Positions 19,100-25,604 of a stretch of DNA of 30,192 nt are shown here, piece after piece. This DNA is from a virus. Its lineage: Duplodnaviria; Heunggongvirae; Uroviricota; Caudoviricetes. Positions within the stretch are counted from its first letter, which is position 1. Every line of letters starts with the position of its first letter. Both the position numbers and the translations under genes were made by a program. A model generated the notes under the pieces. The model was not told the DNA's origin and ran no database searches. It was given only the letters and a program-made list of their open reading frames with translations. Location of the stretch: IMG/VR virus record IMGVR_UViG_3300029071_000017. One strand, written 5' to 3'.

Positions 19100-19184
19100 N
19101 NNNNNNNNNNNNNNNNNNNNNNNNNNNNNNNNNNNNNNNNNNNNNNNNNNNNNNNNNNNNNNNNNNNNNNNNNNNNNNNNNNNN
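19100..19184. other. Assembly gap (85 N)
   Basis: Run of n characters in the sequence. Confidence 1.
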
Positions 19185-21399: not shown

Positions 21400-21893
21400 T
21401 ACGCCCCCACGTAATTCCCTGACAGATACCACTCATCACTCGATACAGCGCGCTTGCTGCTTTTCCGTAAACACAGCTCACGACGCGCCAGAAAATTGTT
21501 TCGTTCTGGCTGGGAGTGGCTTTCACGGAATGCCGCCATCCACACGGTTGCAGCACGACGGTATAAGCCCCTGGACTCCAGTTCTTCAGCCTGGCGGGTC
21601 AGGCACAAAATCACCCGTGGATCGTTAGTGCCGACATAGAAATTGCGCACAGGTCTGGTTTCTCGAACTGGTTGTGGTTCCGGTTCCTGCGCTCTCTCAG
21701 TCAGGCGCGGGAAATGTCTGCGTGTATCTCCTTCACAACGGTGAGCCACACGCCCACTCTGACGTAACTTGCTTGCAGACTGCAGAACGCGCTGCCGTGA
21801 GTAACCTGCAAAAGCATCCGCAATGTCTCCGGAAGTACACCCCGGATGGGCTTCAATGCATTTCTGAACGTCATTTAACAGACTCATGATCAC
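21399..21893 (-). CDS. PerC-like transcriptional regulator
   Basis: 164-aa ORF; C-terminal half ...QAEELESRGLYRRAATVWMAAF...RRELCL resembles the PerC/Pch signature as I recall it; translationally coupled to the replication initiator. Confidence 0.4.
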   Translation of the reverse strand: MIMSLLNDVQKCIEAHPGCTSGDIADAFAGYSRQRVLQSASKLRQSGRVAHRCEGDTRRHFPRLTERAQEPEPQPVRETRPVRNFYVGTNDPRVILCLTRQAEELESRGLYRRAATVWMAAFRESHSQPERNNFLARRELCLRKSSKRAVSSDEWYLSGNYVGA

Positions 21894-22846
21894 CCTCTGA
21901 ATCCTGCCGGGATCTGGCTGTAGTCCACGTTGTCGTAACTGGCTTTGAAGTACGGGTCCTCGCGTTTTTCGGTGTACGTGCTGACGGACGGCGATAAGCG
22001 CAGGGAAAGCTCATCCCATTTTTCCCGCAGCTTCGACGGGCTGAGCACGTTACGGCACCAGAACGGATCGCGGCTGACACGGCTGTACATCTCGCAGATT
22101 TGTTTGTGAGTACGCCCATCCTGTACACACATCAGGCGAATTTCGTTTGCCCAGGCTGTCCAGTTCGGTTCTTTGGGACGAACCACCTCGCCGTCACATT
22201 CGGCAGCCTGCTCGTACAGGGCGATGATTTTTTTCCAGAGCCACTGTGCGCAGGTCAAATCATCCTGCGTCCCCCACTGGCGCTTTTTAGGGCTGAATAC
22301 AACCGCATCAGGATGGCGAGTTAAAAAATCCTGTTCAGCCGTCTGCGTGTCCGGTTGCGAAGCGTCCGGACGAGAAGGTTTTTTATCTGACGGATCATGT
22401 TTTGATTTTACTGACGGATCCCCGCCAGATTCTGACGGGTGAAAACCCGCTTTTTTGCCAGATTTCGACGCATCAAATTTTGACGGGTCAGATTTTGATG
22501 CGTCAGATTTTGATGCGTCAGATTTTGACGGGTCAGAATCTGACAGTTGAGAAAATGCCGCTGCCTGAAGCTTCGCAACGTTAAGCTGATAAACATTCGA
22601 CGCATTGCGGTTACCCTGGCGACGCGCCTTACGCGTTAACCAGCCTTCTGCTTCCAGCCGTGCGATAGCCGTTCTGACGGTACTCATCCCCGCGCCAATC
22701 TGACGGGCAATGGTTTCAATTGATGGCCAGCACACACCTTCGTCATTACTGAAATCAGCCAGGCGGGCCATAATTGCCACGCTGGATAACTTCATGCCTG
22801 ATGCAGCGCAACCATCCCATACATAGCCGGTTAATTTAGTGCTCAT
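21890..22846 (-). CDS. Replication initiator (O-like) with HTH N-terminus and iteron-encoded SKSDA repeats
   Basis: 318-aa ORF; N-terminal HTH-like region; central SKSDASKSDASKSDPSKFDASKS repeats encoded by tandem 15-bp DNA repeats; position after the cro/cII-like genes. Confidence 0.65.
   Translation of the reverse strand: MSTKLTGYVWDGCAASGMKLSSVAIMARLADFSNDEGVCWPSIETIARQIGAGMSTVRTAIARLEAEGWLTRKARRQGNRNASNVYQLNVAKLQAAAFSQLSDSDPSKSDASKSDASKSDPSKFDASKSGKKAGFHPSESGGDPSVKSKHDPSDKKPSRPDASQPDTQTAEQDFLTRHPDAVVFSPKKRQWGTQDDLTCAQWLWKKIIALYEQAAECDGEVVRPKEPNWTAWANEIRLMCVQDGRTHKQICEMYSRVSRDPFWCRNVLSPSKLREKWDELSLRLSPSVSTYTEKREDPYFKASYDNVDYSQIPAGFRG
22426..22548. repeat. Origin-like iteron array: about 7 tandem 15-bp repeats CAGATTTTGAYGSGT inside the initiator gene
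   Basis: Direct repeats read in the sequence (cagattctgacgggt, cagatttcgacgcat, caaattttgacgggt, cagattttgatgcgt x2, cagattttgacgggt, cagaatctgacagtt). Approximate coordinates. Confidence 0.65.
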
Positions 22847-22855
22847 GACCGACCT

Positions 22856-23194
22856 CTATTTCCCTGAATTTACGACGAAACTGTTCGAGCGGACTGAAGC
22901 ATTCATGCTCATAACCTTCGCGGAGGTAGATAACCCGTTGTGTTTCCGGCTCCCAACGAATGACTCTGACGGGCACTCCGTAGTGATCTTTGAACCAGCG
23001 GTTAACTTGTCGCAAAGGACTGTCTCCTTCTGCCGGTTGAAATCACCCACAGCCCACTCTGCAAAGCTGTGGGTTACAATTTCCCTGTCACCTGGTACAT
23101 TCACTGCATAGCAATATTCCACCTTCGCTTTTCCACCCGGTACAGGAAGCGCAATCAGTTGCGAGCGACGGTAGTGTGTTGTTAAACTGTTCAT
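22856..23194 (-). CDS. Hypothetical protein
   Basis: 112-aa ORF whose start overlaps the upstream gene stop and whose stop lies about 10 nt before the initiator start; no recognisable motif. Confidence 0.4.
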
Positions 23195-23760
23195 GCGTTA
23201 GTTTCTCCACAACCAGAAGCAATCGACGCCACGACGCCCGGAGCTGCACACTCGCGGGCGTCATTACTTTCTGAAATGCAAAAAATTTTGTAGACAAGTG
23301 CTGCATGCTCCTGCAGCTTCGAAATTGAGAGATACAGCTCGTCGTTAATTGCTGTCTTCTCATGCGGTTCCACTACACCGTCTTCGATTGCTGAACGAAT
23401 CTGTTTTGAATAACTGCCGATCTGTTCAATGACTTCCAGCAGACGCTGGTTAATATCGGCGTTGTCCACATCCTCGACGTCAGGAAGAGACACAAAGACG
23501 CCATTTGCAGACTGCGCCACAGCATCAGCAATGAAGTGAGTGCCACCAGCACGCTGTAAAACCATTGCCCATCCCAGCGGGAAAATCTGATCGCCATCTG
23601 CACGAAGGCGGTTGAATAAAGCGTTTTCTGTTACATCGAGCCAGTCAGCCGCTTCAGCGTAACCACCCGGCAACGCCGCGATAGTTTTTCTGACAGCTTT
23701 CACGTACCACTCAGGCTGTTTTTCTATTTTCCAGTGATGCTTACCCACGATTAGCCTCAT
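23191..23760 (-). CDS. Putative early regulatory protein (CII/YdaT-like position)
   Basis: 189-aa ORF immediately downstream of the cro-like gene; the family assignment is a weak recollection. Confidence 0.4.
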
Positions 23761-23791
23761 CGTTCTGTGGTTAAAAATTGAAAGTGTTCTG

Positions 23792-23992
23792 CTAATCTTT
23801 CGGATAGATATCCGGTCTTAAGTCAGATTTCGTAATTGCACCTGACGTGCATTGCTCAAGTTTTTTAGCCAGCACAAAACTGGCTTTTTTATAGCCATTG
23901 AAAACCAGCCGTAAGTAGCCAGGTGTTGAGCCAACTTTTCCGGCCAACTCGCCCTGCTGTTCTTTGGTTAAAGAGTCCCAATACGCCTTCAT
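23792..23992 (-). CDS. Cro-like HTH regulator
   Basis: ORF 23792-24295; start set at MKAYWDSLTKEQQGELAGKVGSTPGYLRLVFNGYKKAS (HTH) with GGAGG upstream; divergent from the repressor gene. Confidence 0.65.
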   Translation of the reverse strand: MKAYWDSLTKEQQGELAGKVGSTPGYLRLVFNGYKKASFVLAKKLEQCTSGAITKSDLRPDIYPKD

Positions 23993-24082
23993 ACAATATG
24001 TACCTCCGGTATACATATTACATGATTGAAATGAACCTTCAAGATACTTGTACCTTAACGGTACAAGGGTTTTAATTTTGTT
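23993..24082. promoter_or_regulatory. Immunity operator/promoter region (OR; divergent pR and pRM)
   Basis: Perfect 21-bp palindrome CTTGTACC-TTAAC-GGTACAAG (about 24046-24066) and imperfect palindrome ATATGTACCTCCGGTATACATAT (about 23994-24016); pR candidate TTGAAG-16-TAATAT on the minus strand; pRM candidate TTGTAC-17-TTTAAT ending about 7 nt before the repressor ATG. Confidence 0.6.
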
Positions 24083-24757
24083 ATGAAAACAATCCATGAC
24101 ATCCGGCGGTCTAACGCCAGAAAACTGAGAGATGGTGTTGGCGGGAATTCTTCCTTTGCCACTATGATTGATCGCGAGCCAACCCAGACCAGCAGGTTTA
24201 TGGGAGATGGTGCTACTAAAAATATCGGTGACAGCATGGCACGACACATCGAAAAATGTTTCGACCTGCCTGTCGGATGGCTCGATCAAGAACACCAGAC
24301 AACGAACATCACAAAAAAACCTGATGTTTCAATCACTAATAAACAAATCACATTAGTCCCTGTCATATCATGGGTACAGGCCGGAGCATGGAAAGAAGTT
24401 GGATATTCTGAGGTTGATTTGAGCACAGCAGAAACGTATCCCTGCCCTGTCCCCTGTGGGGAAATGACTTATATCTTGCGGGTGATAGGTGATTCAATGA
24501 TTGATGAGTACCGCCCGGGAGACATGATTTTTGTCGATCCTGAAGTACCTGCCTGCCACGGTGACGACGTTATTGCATTGATGCACGATACAGGTGAAAC
24601 CACCTTCAAAAGGTTGATAGAAGATGGGACACAGCGTTATCTCAAAGCGTTAAACCCAAACTGGCCTGAGCCTTACATTAAGATCAACGGTAATTGCTCT
24701 ATAATTGGTACAGTGATTTTCTCAGGAAAACCAAGAAGATACAAAATCAAAGCCTAA
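24083..24757 (+). CDS. CI/C2-type repressor (HTH N-terminus, LexA-like S24 autopeptidase C-terminus)
   Basis: 224-aa ORF; C-terminal ...ISWVQAGAWKEV...VIGDSMIDEY...ETTFKRLIEDGTQRYLKALNPNWPEPYIKINGNCSIIG parallels P22 C2 and the LexA catalytic Ser/Lys region. Confidence 0.85.
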   Translation: MKTIHDIRRSNARKLRDGVGGNSSFATMIDREPTQTSRFMGDGATKNIGDSMARHIEKCFDLPVGWLDQEHQTTNITKKPDVSITNKQITLVPVISWVQAGAWKEVGYSEVDLSTAETYPCPVPCGEMTYILRVIGDSMIDEYRPGDMIFVDPEVPACHGDDVIALMHDTGETTFKRLIEDGTQRYLKALNPNWPEPYIKINGNCSIIGTVIFSGKPRRYKIKA

Positions 24758-24769
24758 TCAATGTTTATG

Positions 24770-24792
24770 AACCTGCTTCGGCAGGTTTTTTT
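24770..24792 (+). terminator. Intrinsic terminator of the repressor gene
   Basis: AACCTGC-TTCG-GCAGGTT hairpin followed by 7 T directly after the repressor stop. Approximate coordinates. Confidence 0.7.
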
Positions 24793-24796
24793 ATAC

Positions 24797-24830
24797 TTGA
24801 CAATGTACCTTTTAGATACATAATGTACCC
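24797..24830 (+). promoter_or_regulatory. pL-like early promoter with operator-like AATGTACC repeats
   Basis: TTGACA-16 nt-CATAAT; AATGTACC occurs at -35/spacer and again overlapping -10, the same TGTACC core as the OR palindromes. Approximate coordinates. Confidence 0.6.
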
Positions 24831-24991
24831 AGGCGAAACAACAAACAGGCAGGACGTCCATGAAGTAGCCCCCTGGAGCATATGAAGTCCAGGATGATTC
24901 GTTAGCAACAAAAAAGCGCCCTACAGGACGCTTAGCTCTTTAACAATCTGGTCCCCATCAACAAGTAACTGATAACTTGAGGAGGTGTGAA

Positions 24992-25198
24992 ATGCACAAA
25001 ACAGAACCCAAAATCGTCGCGCCCGGATACACAAATGAGGAAATTTACGAGTGGATGGCAAAGAAGCTGGCAGCTATAAACCAGCTTCGTGAAGTGCTGT
25101 CTTATCGACAGGAAACAATAGACTCCTTAAAAAAACTGGATCAGGAAATCACGGTTTTATCACAGGATGTTACTTTAGATATTGTGCAGACAAATTAG
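24992..25198 (+). CDS. Small hypothetical protein (68 aa), first ORF of the rightward early operon
   Basis: ORF 24977-25198; start set at MHKTEPKIV with GAGGAGG 6 nt upstream; no Arg-rich motif, so not an N-type antiterminator. Confidence 0.45.
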   Translation: MHKTEPKIVAPGYTNEEIYEWMAKKLAAINQLREVLSYRQETIDSLKKLDQEITVLSQDVTLDIVQTN

Positions 25199-25604
25199 GA
25201 TCCCATTCATTTTCGTCAAAATCATCAAAGTGATGAATTTGTGATCTCCAGTCTCGATAATCTAAAAATTTCTGGGCGGTTACGCTTATTTTATCAAGTG
25301 TGAGTTCATCCTGAATTGAAAGAAGAAGTTCATCAAATTTCATCTCATTAATCTGTTTTGGCATCCAGTGATGCTTCATCAGAATAAGGTGAACCAGAGC
25401 CTTTTTCCCATTCAACTGATTATAGGGAGTGCCGAATTTCTTCCGGTGCTCATGTAAGACAAGGTCCAGAAGAGTAAGTAATGTTGCCCTTGATTCGACT
25501 TTGCTTATTTCGACTGATGACACTACCCCACTGATTTCAATGCCCCGATACTTTCCAACATTTTCACAGTGGGATTTGTACAGCGTGTAGATATTACCGG
25601 ACAT
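25170..25604 (-). CDS. Hypothetical 144-aa protein, AT-rich, convergent to the early operon
   Basis: Clean ORF antisense to pL-direction transcription, AT-rich relative to flanks, AAGGA RBS; 3' end overlaps the 68-aa ORF by about 29 nt. Confidence 0.5.
   Translation of the reverse strand: MSGNIYTLYKSHCENVGKYRGIEISGVVSSVEISKVESRATLLTLLDLVLHEHRKKFGTPYNQLNGKKALVHLILMKHHWMPKQINEMKFDELLLSIQDELTLDKISVTAQKFLDYRDWRSQIHHFDDFDENEWDPNLSAQYLK

What the first reader, a model, noticed from the sequence alone, without database searches (positions are those of the whole stretch)
23993..24082. Compact immunity switch with a perfect 21-bp palindromic operator and a probably leaderless repressor mRNA
CTTGTACC-TTAAC-GGTACAAG overlaps the predicted pRM -35, and the predicted pRM -10 (TTTAAT) ends ~7 nt before the repressor ATG, with no Shine-Dalgarno, as for lambda cI from pRM. 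A second imperfect palindrome overlaps the cro-like RBS and the pR -10. Only two clear operator sites are visible in 90 bp, where lambda has three.
Basis: partly seen in the sequence, partly recalled or inferred. Interest (0 to 1): 0.4.

Follow-up and report, generated by a model that had tools for sequence, protein, structure and literature searches.

The report
e14/SfV prophage repressor–cro control region

Summary
CTTGTACC-TTAAC-GGTACAAG lies at 24047-24067 (8-nt arms; 9 of 10 pairs). The second imperfect dyad lies over the cro Shine-Dalgarno and the pR -10.

The region is 98-99.5% identical to the cI/cro region of Shigella phages SfV and SfIV and to ymfK(cohE)/ymfT(croE) of the E. coli K-12 e14 prophage. 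It occurs in 1324 of 5426 complete E. coli genomes. The SfV GenBank record already marks a "putative operator region" here.

Published dRNA-seq (Romero 2014) places the ymfK transcription start on the A of the ATG, a 0-nt leader. The leaderless prediction is therefore already shown experimentally in e14.

In 24 related loci (42-100% repressor identity, from Escherichia to Vibrio and Pseudomonas phages) the 17-bp operator TGTACC-N5-GGTACA keeps its half-sites while its spacer varies. A -10-like hexamer always ends 6-7 nt before the ATG.

- A conserved weaker third site (OR2, 24032-24048) lies between the two clear ones.
- Two more sites lie on a near-consensus pL promoter just downstream of the repressor gene (24797-24840).

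Protein binding, occupancy order and pR start were not tested here. Verdict: real, lambda-like, already known; low interest.

The parts
24083..24757 (+). Repressor gene (224 aa; = SfV/SfIV cI, e14 ymfK/cohE). N-terminal helical DNA-binding domain plus C-terminal S24 autopeptidase domain; Ala100-Gly101, Ser138 and Lys176 are present.
   Evidence: ORF. (Peptidase_S24, 1.5e-26). (100% identical to SfIV cI). (lambda CI C-terminal domain rmsd 1.8 A; full-length 3bdn; N-terminal domain matches 5d50 Rep). (conserved A100, S138, K176).
23792..23992 (-). cro-like gene (66 aa; = SfV cro, e14 ymfT/croE), a YdaS-family helix-turn-helix protein.
   Evidence: weak matches: YdaS_toxin 1.5e-05 at 25.1 bits, below Pfam's 30-bit cut-off; HTH_3. 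(annotations). (homologous Cro-like genes beside distant relatives).
23999..24015 (.). OR1-like operator TGTACC-TCCGG-TATACA. It covers the predicted pR start region and the cro Shine-Dalgarno. K-12 has G at 24011, which gives TGTACA.
   Evidence: Conserved at -84/-85 from the repressor ATG in 18 of 18 enterobacterial loci and present in the distant relatives.
24032..24048 (.). OR2-like weak operator TGAACC-TTCAA-GATACT. The left half-site is invariant and the right half is degenerate. It overlaps the pR -35 and is centred at -43 of pRM.
   Evidence: 3 mismatches. (TGAACC invariant at -51/-52). (an exact TGTACC at this position in the Providencia, Salinicola, Morganella and Pseudomonas-phage relatives). 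Function is inferred.
24049..24065 (.). It overlaps the pRM -35 and spacer and is centred at -26 of pRM.
   Evidence: 0 mismatches. (half-sites about 2 bits, spacer 0.2-0.6 bits). (fixed at -34/-35).
24048..24083 (+). pRM: -35 TTGTAC (24048-53), 17-bp spacer, -10 TTTAAT (24071-76), start at the A of the ATG (24083). The mRNA is leaderless.
   Evidence: Read from the sequence. Transcription start from Romero 2014 Table S3 for e14 ymfK. A -10-like hexamer ends 6-7 nt before the ATG in 24 of 24 related loci.
24003..24042 (-). Predicted pR: -35 TTGAAG (24042..24037), 16-bp spacer, -10 TAATAT (24020..24015), start near 24010-24007, Shine-Dalgarno GGAGG (24007..24003), cro ATG at 23992.
   Evidence: Read from the sequence. 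The TTG of the -35 is conserved in 17 of 18 orthologues and a -10-like hexamer in most. It was not found by the stricter scan (8 of 12 matches). No transcription start data were found.
24769..24795 (+). Intrinsic terminator after the repressor gene.
   Evidence: Annotated as a terminator in the SfV and Ayreon records.
24797..24840 (+). pL-like promoter TTGACA (24797-802) / 16 bp / CATAAT (24819-24), with OL1 TGTACC-TTTTA-GATACA (24804-20) and OL2 TGTACC-CAGGC-GAAACA (24824-40).
   Evidence: 11 of 12 matches.. TTGACA-A-TGTACC-N5-GRTACA-TAAT-GTACC is conserved in all 18 enterobacterial loci, with single-base exceptions in two. Also present in Providencia and Morganella.
23191..23760 (-). CII-like gene (189 aa; e14 ymfL / SfV orf36), second gene of the pR operon.
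   Evidence: Pfam Phage_CP76, the phage-186 type CII, 1.3e-13. (synteny).

Best explanation
This is the right-operator control region (OR/pR/pRM) of an e14/SfV-type lambdoid prophage.

What the sequence and comparisons show:
- The repressor (CohE/YmfK = SfV CI) is transcribed rightward from a weak promoter, TTGTAC-17-TTTAAT. Its transcript begins at the A of the AUG and has no Shine-Dalgarno sequence.
- The operator is a 17-bp dyad, TGTACC-N5-GGTACA.
- OR1 lies over the start of the leftward cro/cII operon and OR2 over its -35. OR3 lies over the -35 and spacer of pRM.
- Two more sites (OL1, OL2) sit inside a strong promoter just downstream of the repressor gene.

What is inferred:
- Repressor dimers bind these sites.
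- In the lysogen, repressor on OR1 and OR2 and on OL1 and OL2 shuts off both early operons.
- Repressor on OR2, centred at -43 of pRM, may stimulate pRM as lambda CI does from OR2. I recall lambda OR2 at about -42.
- Repressor or Cro on OR3 shuts pRM off.
- DNA damage leads to RecA-stimulated self-cleavage of the repressor at Ala100-Gly101, which frees pR and pL.
- The YdaS-family Cro (YmfT) then occupies the same sites, probably OR3 first.

Shown elsewhere: the transcription start of ymfK (Romero 2014) and SOS-linked induction of e14 genes. The occupancy order and the pR start are also inferred, not shown.
For: Identity:
- The region is 98-99.5% identical at the DNA level to phages SfV, SfIV and PhiR49_1.
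- It matches ymfK/ymfT of e14 and is present in 1324 of 5426 complete E. coli genomes.
- The SfV record annotates a 'putative operator region' equivalent to window ~23998-24066.

Repressor type:
- S24 domain.
- Sequence match to the lambda CI C-terminal domain.
- AlphaFold model with pLDDT 80 that matches full-length lambda CI, with the N-terminal domain matching SPC32H Rep.
- Conserved Ala-Gly, Ser and Lys.

Operators:
- Matches with at most 2 mismatches occur only at four places in 30 kb, all flanking the repressor gene.
- 18 enterobacterial loci keep the sites at -84, -51 and -34 from the ATG; 13 also keep both OL sites (about +47/+67 after the stop) and the other five keep OL1 with a more degenerate OL2. 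Half-sites are invariant and spacers vary.
- The same layout is found in Providencia, Salinicola, Morganella and Salinivibrio prophages and in Vibrio and Pseudomonas phages at 42-60% identity.

Leaderless transcript:
- The ymfK transcription start is at the first base of the ORF in K-12.
- A -10-like hexamer ends 6-7 nt before an ATG in 24 of 24 loci, while the intervening bases vary.

Analogy:
- In CP-933P, PaaR2 (leaderless, activates PRM at low level) and YdaS (binds PRM first) were footprinted on a 97-bp intergenic region (PMC8630535).

Induction:
- e14 genes co-vary with the SOS genes sulA and recN (gene list) and are most active in fur mutants and under H2O2 stress (PMC10602906).
- sfiC/ymfM is SOS-inducible but LexA-independent.
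Against: - No binding, footprint or reporter data for CohE or CroE on these sites were found in the papers I could read. Mehta 2004 and Allison 2002 are not held.
- The best operator (OR3) sits on pRM rather than on pR, the reverse of the lambda CI affinity order. The order of occupancy and any positive autoregulation are therefore open.
- OR2 has 3 mismatches here, and part of its conservation could be due to the pR -35.
- pRM has T, not A, at -11, and a 3-of-6 -35 hexamer. It is not picked up by the consensus scan.
- The pR start is predicted only.
- Half-sites do not co-vary with repressor divergence, so conservation cannot tell whether CI, Cro or both read them.
Confidence: 0.85

Rival explanations
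1. A two-site switch. Only OR1 and OR3 are protein-binding sites. The conserved TGAACC...CAAG block between them reflects the pR -35 and spacer (RNA polymerase contacts), not a third operator. In that case the repressor only represses, with simple negative autoregulation and no lambda-like activation from -43.
For: - OR2 has 3 of 12 mismatches in the window.
- Its right half is degenerate across orthologues.
- Its spacer contains the conserved TTG of the pR -35.
- The strongest site overlies pRM, which fits plain autorepression.
Against: - TGAACC is invariant in 18 of 18 enterobacterial loci even though it lies mainly in the pR spacer, where polymerase needs no specific sequence.
- In four distant relatives the same position carries an exact TGTACC half-site.
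- It keeps a fixed 17-bp phase with OR3 in the enterobacterial loci and most distant relatives.
- OL2 shows the same pattern of a perfect left half and a degenerate right half.
- The CP-933P analogue shows activation of PRM at low repressor levels.
Confidence: 0.2
2. The 24047-24067 palindrome works as an RNA hairpin. With the following GGTTTTAATTTT it would form an intrinsic terminator or attenuator for rightward transcripts entering from the cro side (for example a CII-activated establishment transcript), rather than acting as a DNA operator.
For: - The terminator scan flags it: 8-bp stem, 5-nt loop, T-rich tail.
- The RNA folds at -13.1 kcal/mol, z = -2.4.
Against: - The T-run is not conserved. 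Most orthologues have GAATG, CACTG or CAATG after the stem.
- The stem arms never co-vary, and the same half-sites recur as separate dyads at OR1, OL1 and OL2, where no terminator makes sense.
- The mapped ymfK start lies downstream of the hairpin.
- A terminator directly before the repressor gene would defeat an establishment transcript.
- No Rfam family matches the region.
Confidence: 0.03
3. The palindromes are chance features of an AT-rich intergenic region and have no function.
For: 13 perfect 8-nt-arm inverted repeats occur in the 30-kb window, so one such repeat alone is weak evidence.
Against: - Four of four matches with at most 2 mismatches cluster around the repressor gene.
- Position and half-site sequence are conserved across genera while the spacer is free to vary.
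Confidence: 0.01

Closest known systems
e14 prophage ymfK(cohE)-ymfT(croE) region of E. coli K-12, and the cI-cro region of Shigella phages SfV/SfIV
   Same: It is the same element.
- The K-12 copy is 98.5% identical over the central 201 bp; SfV and SfIV are 98.2-99.0% identical over 1.1 kb.
- The repressor is 100% identical to SfIV cI.
- Gene order is the same: cI / cro / ymfL-like / DUF4222 / replication genes.
- The 'putative operator region' is already annotated in U82619.2.
- The ymfK mRNA has been shown to be leaderless.
   Different: - A few point differences. OR1 is TATACA here and in SfV but TGTACA in K-12. Position 24079 is T here and C in K-12. The OR3 spacer is TTAAC here and CTATC in SfV.
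- The rest of this prophage is a mosaic, with structural genes like vB_EcoS-569R4 and PhiR40_1.
Phage lambda OR (OR1-OR2-OR3, PR/PRM) with leaderless cI, plus OL/PL
   Same: - Divergent cI and cro genes.
- 17-bp dyad operators and three sites in OR.
- One site centred at about -43 of pRM. I recall lambda OR2 at about -42.
- A site over pRM.
- The pRM transcript starts at the AUG.
- A second operator cluster on the early promoter on the other side of cI.
- An S24 repressor whose model matches lambda CI.
   Different: - The operator sequence is unrelated.
- OR2 and OR3 abut (17 bp centre to centre), and OR1-OR2 are 33 bp apart. I recall 23-24 bp for lambda.
- The best-matching site is over pRM, not pR.
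- OL has two sites, not three.
- Cro is of the YdaS family.
- The CII-like protein is of the phage-186 (CP76) type.
- No N-like gene was noted.
CP-933P PaaR2-YdaS-YdaT switch (E. coli O157:H7), and the Rac racR-ydaS and Qin dicA-dicC switches
   Same: - A short intergenic region (97 bp in CP-933P) between a leaderless repressor gene and a YdaS-type Cro-like gene.
- For CP-933P, footprints over both promoters and a PL analogue were shown.
- racR and dicA mRNAs are leaderless in the same data set as ymfK.
   Different: - PaaR2, RacR and DicA lack the S24 cleavage domain.
- The operator consensus differs (GTTTAGTAA repeats in CP-933P).
- The CII analogue there is YdaT, not CP76.
Rep repressor of Salmonella phage SPC32H (PDB 5d50; Gifsy-type repressors)
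   Same: The N-terminal DNA-binding domain matches in sequence and fold: 75 columns, rmsd 2.1 A, 37% identity.
   Different: According to the literature as I recall it, Rep has no S24 autopeptidase domain and is inactivated by an antirepressor. Its operators were not compared here.

Membership tests
e14 / SfV-type immunity module (cohE-croE = SfV cI-cro) | Near-identical DNA across the repressor gene, intergenic region and cro gene. | tested here: met
   96-99.5% identity over 1101 bp to 26 phage records. At least 94.5% (nearly all 95% or more) over 201 bp in 1324 E. coli genomes annotated ymfK/ymfT. Repressor 100% identical to SfIV cI.
Lambdoid CI/Cro genetic switch | Divergent repressor and cro genes separated by a short regulatory region that carries both promoters. 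| tested here: met
   The 90-bp intergenic region 23993-24082 lies between 24083(+) and 23992(-). pRM is supported by the published transcription start. pR is predicted from the sequence only.
Lambdoid CI/Cro genetic switch | Repressor with an N-terminal helix-turn-helix domain and a C-terminal S24 self-cleaving domain (Ala-Gly site, Ser/Lys dyad). | tested here: met
   Pfam S24. Lambda CI C-terminal domain hits. Model matches 3bdn, 1f39 and 5d50. A100-G101, S138 and K176 are conserved. Cleavage itself was not tested.
Lambdoid CI/Cro genetic switch | Several dyad-symmetric operators of one consensus that overlap pR and pRM, with a second cluster at pL. | tested here: met
   OR1, OR2 and OR3 and OL1 and OL2 share TGTACC-N5-GGTACA. 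Positions and half-sites are conserved in 24 loci.
Lambdoid CI/Cro genetic switch | Repressor and Cro bind these operators with opposite preference; cooperative binding; positive and negative autoregulation. | not testable with these tools
   No binding data were found. Only the CP-933P analogy is available.
Leaderless mRNA (lambda cI type) | Transcription starts at, or within a few nucleotides of, the A of an AUG start codon. | tested here: inconclusive
   Not measurable on this window. It has been shown for the e14 copy: transcription start RVS_(I)-1202156 equals the ymfK start, leader 0. From the -35 to the ATG the e14 promoter differs from the window only at 24079.
Leaderless mRNA (lambda cI type) | A -10 hexamer placed so that +1 falls on the start codon; no Shine-Dalgarno sequence; AUG rather than GUG or UUG. 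| tested here: met
   TTTAAT lies at -12..-7 relative to 24083. There is no Shine-Dalgarno 4-mer in the 20 nt upstream. In 24 of 24 related loci the hexamer ends 6-7 nt before an ATG, with unconserved bases in between (for Morganella the second ATG is used, as in the alignment).
Intrinsic (rho-independent) terminator | A G+C-rich stem followed directly by a conserved U-run. | tested here: not met
   The pattern is present in the window, but the T-run is absent in most orthologues.

The most novel reading that the evidence does not exclude
This 'GTAC-box' module could be one ancient immunity specificity. The module comprises the repressor N-terminal domain, the TGTACC-N5-GGTACA operators at fixed positions, a YdaS-type Cro and a leaderless repressor mRNA. 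It appears from Escherichia to Vibrio, Halomonadaceae and Pseudomonas phages.

Under this reading its logic differs from lambda. The best operator sits on pRM, so the repressor is held low by tight autorepression, and the weak abutting OR2 at -43 sets the balance.

A practical corollary follows. e14-type cryptic prophages, present in about a quarter of complete E. coli genomes, would confer immunity to SfV-type serotype-converting phages and to the Stx2c-converting and cdtI phages that carry the same region.
Probability: 0.25. Interest if true: 0.4.

Novelty: already known. Interest (0 to 1): 0.15.

Why it matters
It matters little as a discovery. The element, its repressor and cro genes, a putative operator region and the leaderless repressor transcript are already on record for e14 and SfV.

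It has some practical value:
- The operator code (TGTACC-N5-GGTACA), the three OR sites, the two OL sites and the promoter geometry are now laid out with comparative support. That gives a ready design for footprinting and reporter tests of CohE and CroE, which remain biochemically uncharacterised in the literature I could read.
- The same immunity region in Stx2c-converting, cdtI and SfV/SfIV phages suggests cross-immunity with a very common cryptic prophage.

Tried and rejected
- Terminator reading of the palindrome: rejected because the T-run is not conserved.
- Chance palindrome: rejected by clustering and conservation.
- Known RNA family: none in 23000-25600 at E <= 1.
- Covariation between repressor and operator: not informative, because half-sites stay the same down to 42% protein identity.
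- Literature on operator mapping. Mehta et al. 2004 (PMC331406) and Allison et al. 2002 are not held. Searches for ymfK/ymfT, cohE/croE, e14 operator and the half-site strings found no binding study.
- ymfT transcription start: absent from the Romero supplement and from the Reg-Seq supplement.
- A homologue search with the N-terminal 88 residues alone returned mainly fragments. The full-length search was used instead.
- The extended 37-bp symmetry around OR1 (23989-24025): I treat the outer arms as by-products of the cro ATG and the pR -10, because flanks are not shared by the other sites.

Full report
**What is in the sequence**

The 90-bp stretch 23993-24082 lies between two divergent ORFs.
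- A 224-aa ORF runs rightward from the ATG at 24083.
- A 66-aa ORF runs leftward from the ATG at 23992.

CTTGTACC-TTAAC-GGTACAAG is at 24047-24067. It has 8-nt perfectly complementary arms and a 5-nt centre. Nine of its ten pairs are complementary, so 'perfect 21-bp palindrome' is a slight overstatement.

For the repressor promoter, TTGTAC (24048-53) lies 17 bp upstream of TTTAAT (24071-76). TTTAAT ends six nucleotides before the ATG. No Shine-Dalgarno 4-mer occurs in the 20 nt upstream.

The second dyad is TGTACC-TCCGG-TATACA at 23999-24015. It extends as a 14-nt, 86% inverted repeat. Its centre is the complement of the cro Shine-Dalgarno (GGAGG, 24007..24003). Its right edge touches the best pR -10 candidate (TAATAT, 24020..24015), which pairs with TTGAAG (24042..24037) across a 16-bp spacer.

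The consensus scan did not report either promoter. pRM lacks A at -11, and pR scores only 8 of 12.

**Is it more than chance?**

One 8-nt inverted repeat is weak evidence on its own. The window holds 13 of them, against 3.7 +/- 2.1 in shuffles. However, the 17-bp pattern TGTACC-N5-GGTACA matches with at most 2 mismatches at only four places in 30 kb, and all four flank the 224-aa ORF:
- 23999-24015
- 24049-24065
- 24804-24820
- 24824-24840

A 3-mismatch site, TGAACC-TTCAA-GATACT, lies at 24032-24048, directly abutting the perfect site.

**Identity**

The 1.1 kb around the finding is 98.2-99.5% identical to Escherichia phages PhiR49_1 and PhiR29 and to Shigella phages SfIV and SfV. It is 96% identical to Ayreon, 2H10, the cdtI phage and twelve Stx2c-converting phages.

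The central 201 bp occurs at about 95% identity or more in 1324 of 5426 complete E. coli genomes, K-12 included. There the genes are ymfK (LexA-family protein) and ymfT (YdaS-family HTH) of the e14 prophage.

The SfV GenBank record U82619.2 already carries a regulatory feature, 'putative operator region'. It maps to about 23998-24066 of the window.

The rest of the window is a mosaic, with structural genes like vB_EcoS-569R4 and PhiR40_1.

**The proteins**

Repressor:
- An S24 peptidase domain spans residues 93-212.
- It matches the lambda CI C-terminal domain by sequence.
- An AlphaFold model built on 33 homologues has pLDDT 80.
- That model matches full-length lambda repressor (3bdn) and the lambda C-terminal domain at rmsd 1.8 A.
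- Its four-helix N-terminal domain matches the Rep repressor of Salmonella phage SPC32H (5d50; 75 columns, rmsd 2.1 A, 37% identity).
- Ala100-Gly101, Ser138 and Lys176 are conserved.

Neighbouring genes:
- The leftward ORF weakly matches the YdaS and HTH_3 families, below Pfam's own cut-offs.
- The next gene (23191-23760) matches Pfam Phage_CP76, the phage-186 type of CII.

**Leaderless transcript**

Romero et al. 2014 (PMC4681348) mapped transcription starts in MG1655 by differential RNA-seq. They found only five mRNAs with leaders under 10 nt, and three of them encode prophage regulators: dicA, racR and ymfK.

Their Table S3 lists ymfK with its start, RVS_(I)-1202156, at the first base of the ORF, leader 0. 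From the -35 to the ATG, the K-12 promoter differs from the window only at position 24079.

Comparative data agree. In 24 related loci a -10-like hexamer ends 6-7 nt before the ATG of the conserved MKT... N-terminus. The intervening bases are unconserved and no usable Shine-Dalgarno is present.

**Phylogenetic footprint**

A scan of one genome per species returned 19 loci whose repressors are 73-100% identical to the query. They come from Pseudocitrobacter, Klebsiella, Atlantibacter, Leclercia, Phytobacter, Enterobacter, Pantoea, Trabulsiella, Kluyvera, Limnobaculum, Rahnella, Edwardsiella and others.

Alignment of the intergenic regions and a motif scan show sites fixed at -84/-85, -51/-52 and -34/-35 from the repressor ATG.
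- In the perfect site the half-site columns carry about 2 bits and the 5-bp spacer 0.2-0.6 bits.
- The middle site keeps an invariant left half (TGAACC) and a degenerate right half.

Downstream of the repressor gene, TTGACA-A-TGTACC-N5-GRTACA-TAAT-GTACC is conserved in all 18 enterobacterial loci, with single-base exceptions in two. That is a near-consensus promoter (11 of 12) with one operator in its spacer and one over its start. It follows the terminator at 24769-24788.

Six more distant relatives keep the same half-sites and roughly the same positions (within 1-2 bp of -34 for OR3 where measured). They are Providencia (60%), Salinicola (52%), Morganella (43%), Salinivibrio (42%), a Vibrio phage (43%) and a Pseudomonas phage whose repressor shares only the N-terminal domain (59%). 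The middle site is an exact TGTACC in four of them. Their divergent genes are homologues of the Cro-like protein.

**How it most likely works**

Positions relative to the mapped pRM start (24083):
- OR3 spans -34 to -18.
- OR2 spans -51 to -35 (centre -43).
- OR1 spans -84 to -68.

Positions relative to the predicted pR start (~24008):
- OR1 spans about -7 to +10.
- OR2 spans about -40 to -24.

The layout is therefore the lambda one:
- two sites over pR;
- the promoter-distal one at the position from which lambda CI activates PRM (about -42, from my knowledge of lambda);
- one site over pRM;
- an OL cluster on the other early promoter.

I infer the following steps.
1. Repressor dimers on OR1 and OR2 and on OL1 and OL2 keep both early operons off.
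2. OR3 occupancy limits repressor synthesis.
3. SOS-triggered self-cleavage releases the switch.
4. The YdaS-type Cro then occupies the same sites.

Support by analogy comes from CP-933P (PMC8630535).
- PaaR2, also leaderless by 5' RACE and N-terminal sequencing, and YdaS footprint a 97-bp intergenic region.
- YdaS binds PRM first.
- Low PaaR2 activates PRM.

SOS-linked induction of e14 genes is reported in PMC10602906 and in the ymfM preprint.

These points remain unshown:
- binding of the proteins to the sites;
- the occupancy order, which is notable because the best site is over pRM, the reverse of lambda CI;
- any activation of pRM from OR2;
- the pR start.

**Rivals**

- A terminator or RNA-hairpin role for the palindrome is formally flagged. 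It fails because the T-run is not conserved and the same half-sites recur at four other dyads.
- A two-site switch without a functional OR2 cannot be excluded. I give it 0.2.
- Pure chance is excluded by the conservation.
- No Rfam family matches the region.

**Novelty and verdict**

The finding rediscovers the immunity control region of e14/SfV.
- The leaderless repressor mRNA is published.
- A putative operator region is annotated.
- The proteins are named CohE and CroE in the E. coli literature.

I could not read the two papers most likely to discuss the operators, Mehta 2004 and Allison 2002. I therefore cannot say whether OR2, OL1, OL2 and the wide conservation were described before. No binding study turned up in the searchable library.

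Novelty: already known. Interest: 0.15.

Noticed in passing
window 24769-24840: Directly after the repressor gene there is an intrinsic terminator (24769-88). It is followed by a near-consensus promoter, TTGACA/16/CATAAT, carrying two operator-like sites (24804-20 and 24824-40). This is a pL/OL equivalent, conserved in 18 enterobacterial loci.
   Followed up: yes
window 23191-23760 (-): The gene after cro matches Pfam Phage_CP76, the phage-186 type of CII (E = 1.3e-13). The SfIV genome paper (PMC3851460) states that SfV and SfIV have no cII. A CII-dependent establishment promoter reading towards the repressor gene was not looked for.
   Followed up: partly
window 22459-22537: A 15-bp tandem repeat (5.3 copies, 85% matches) lies inside the replication-initiator-like ORF 21890-22846(-). 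It encodes the SKSDASKSD peptide repeat. These are candidate origin iterons, as in the lambda O gene.
   Followed up: partly
window 19100-19184: A run of 85 N (masked or unresolved sequence).
   Followed up: no
window 23700-24800 versus phage records: Twelve Stx2c-converting phages, the cdtI phage, Ayreon and 2H10 carry this same immunity region at about 96% identity. They are probably homoimmune with e14 and SfV, so e14-type cryptic prophages may protect against them.
   Followed up: no
window 24011 (OR1) and 24055-24059 (OR3 spacer): There are allelic differences inside the operators. OR1's right half is TATACA here and in SfV and Ayreon, but TGTACA in K-12. The OR3 spacer is TTAAC here and in K-12, TTATC in Ayreon and CTATC in SfV. 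The OR1 change removes one consensus base over pR.
   Followed up: partly
window 24448-24464: A weak operator-like match lies inside the repressor ORF: TGTCCCCTGTGGGGAAA, 3 mismatches. The K-12 copy is TGTACCCTGTGGGGAAA, 2 mismatches. It is probably chance, and no such match (at 2 mismatches or fewer) appeared inside the repressor gene of the other orthologues in the scan.
   Followed up: partly
L028 2000-2120 (Pseudomonas phage vB_Pae_CF3a, downstream of its repressor): Two copies of CTGTATATACA(G/A)AG lie downstream of the repressor homologue instead of GTAC-type OL sites. The left-operator equivalent may differ in that phage.
   Followed up: no
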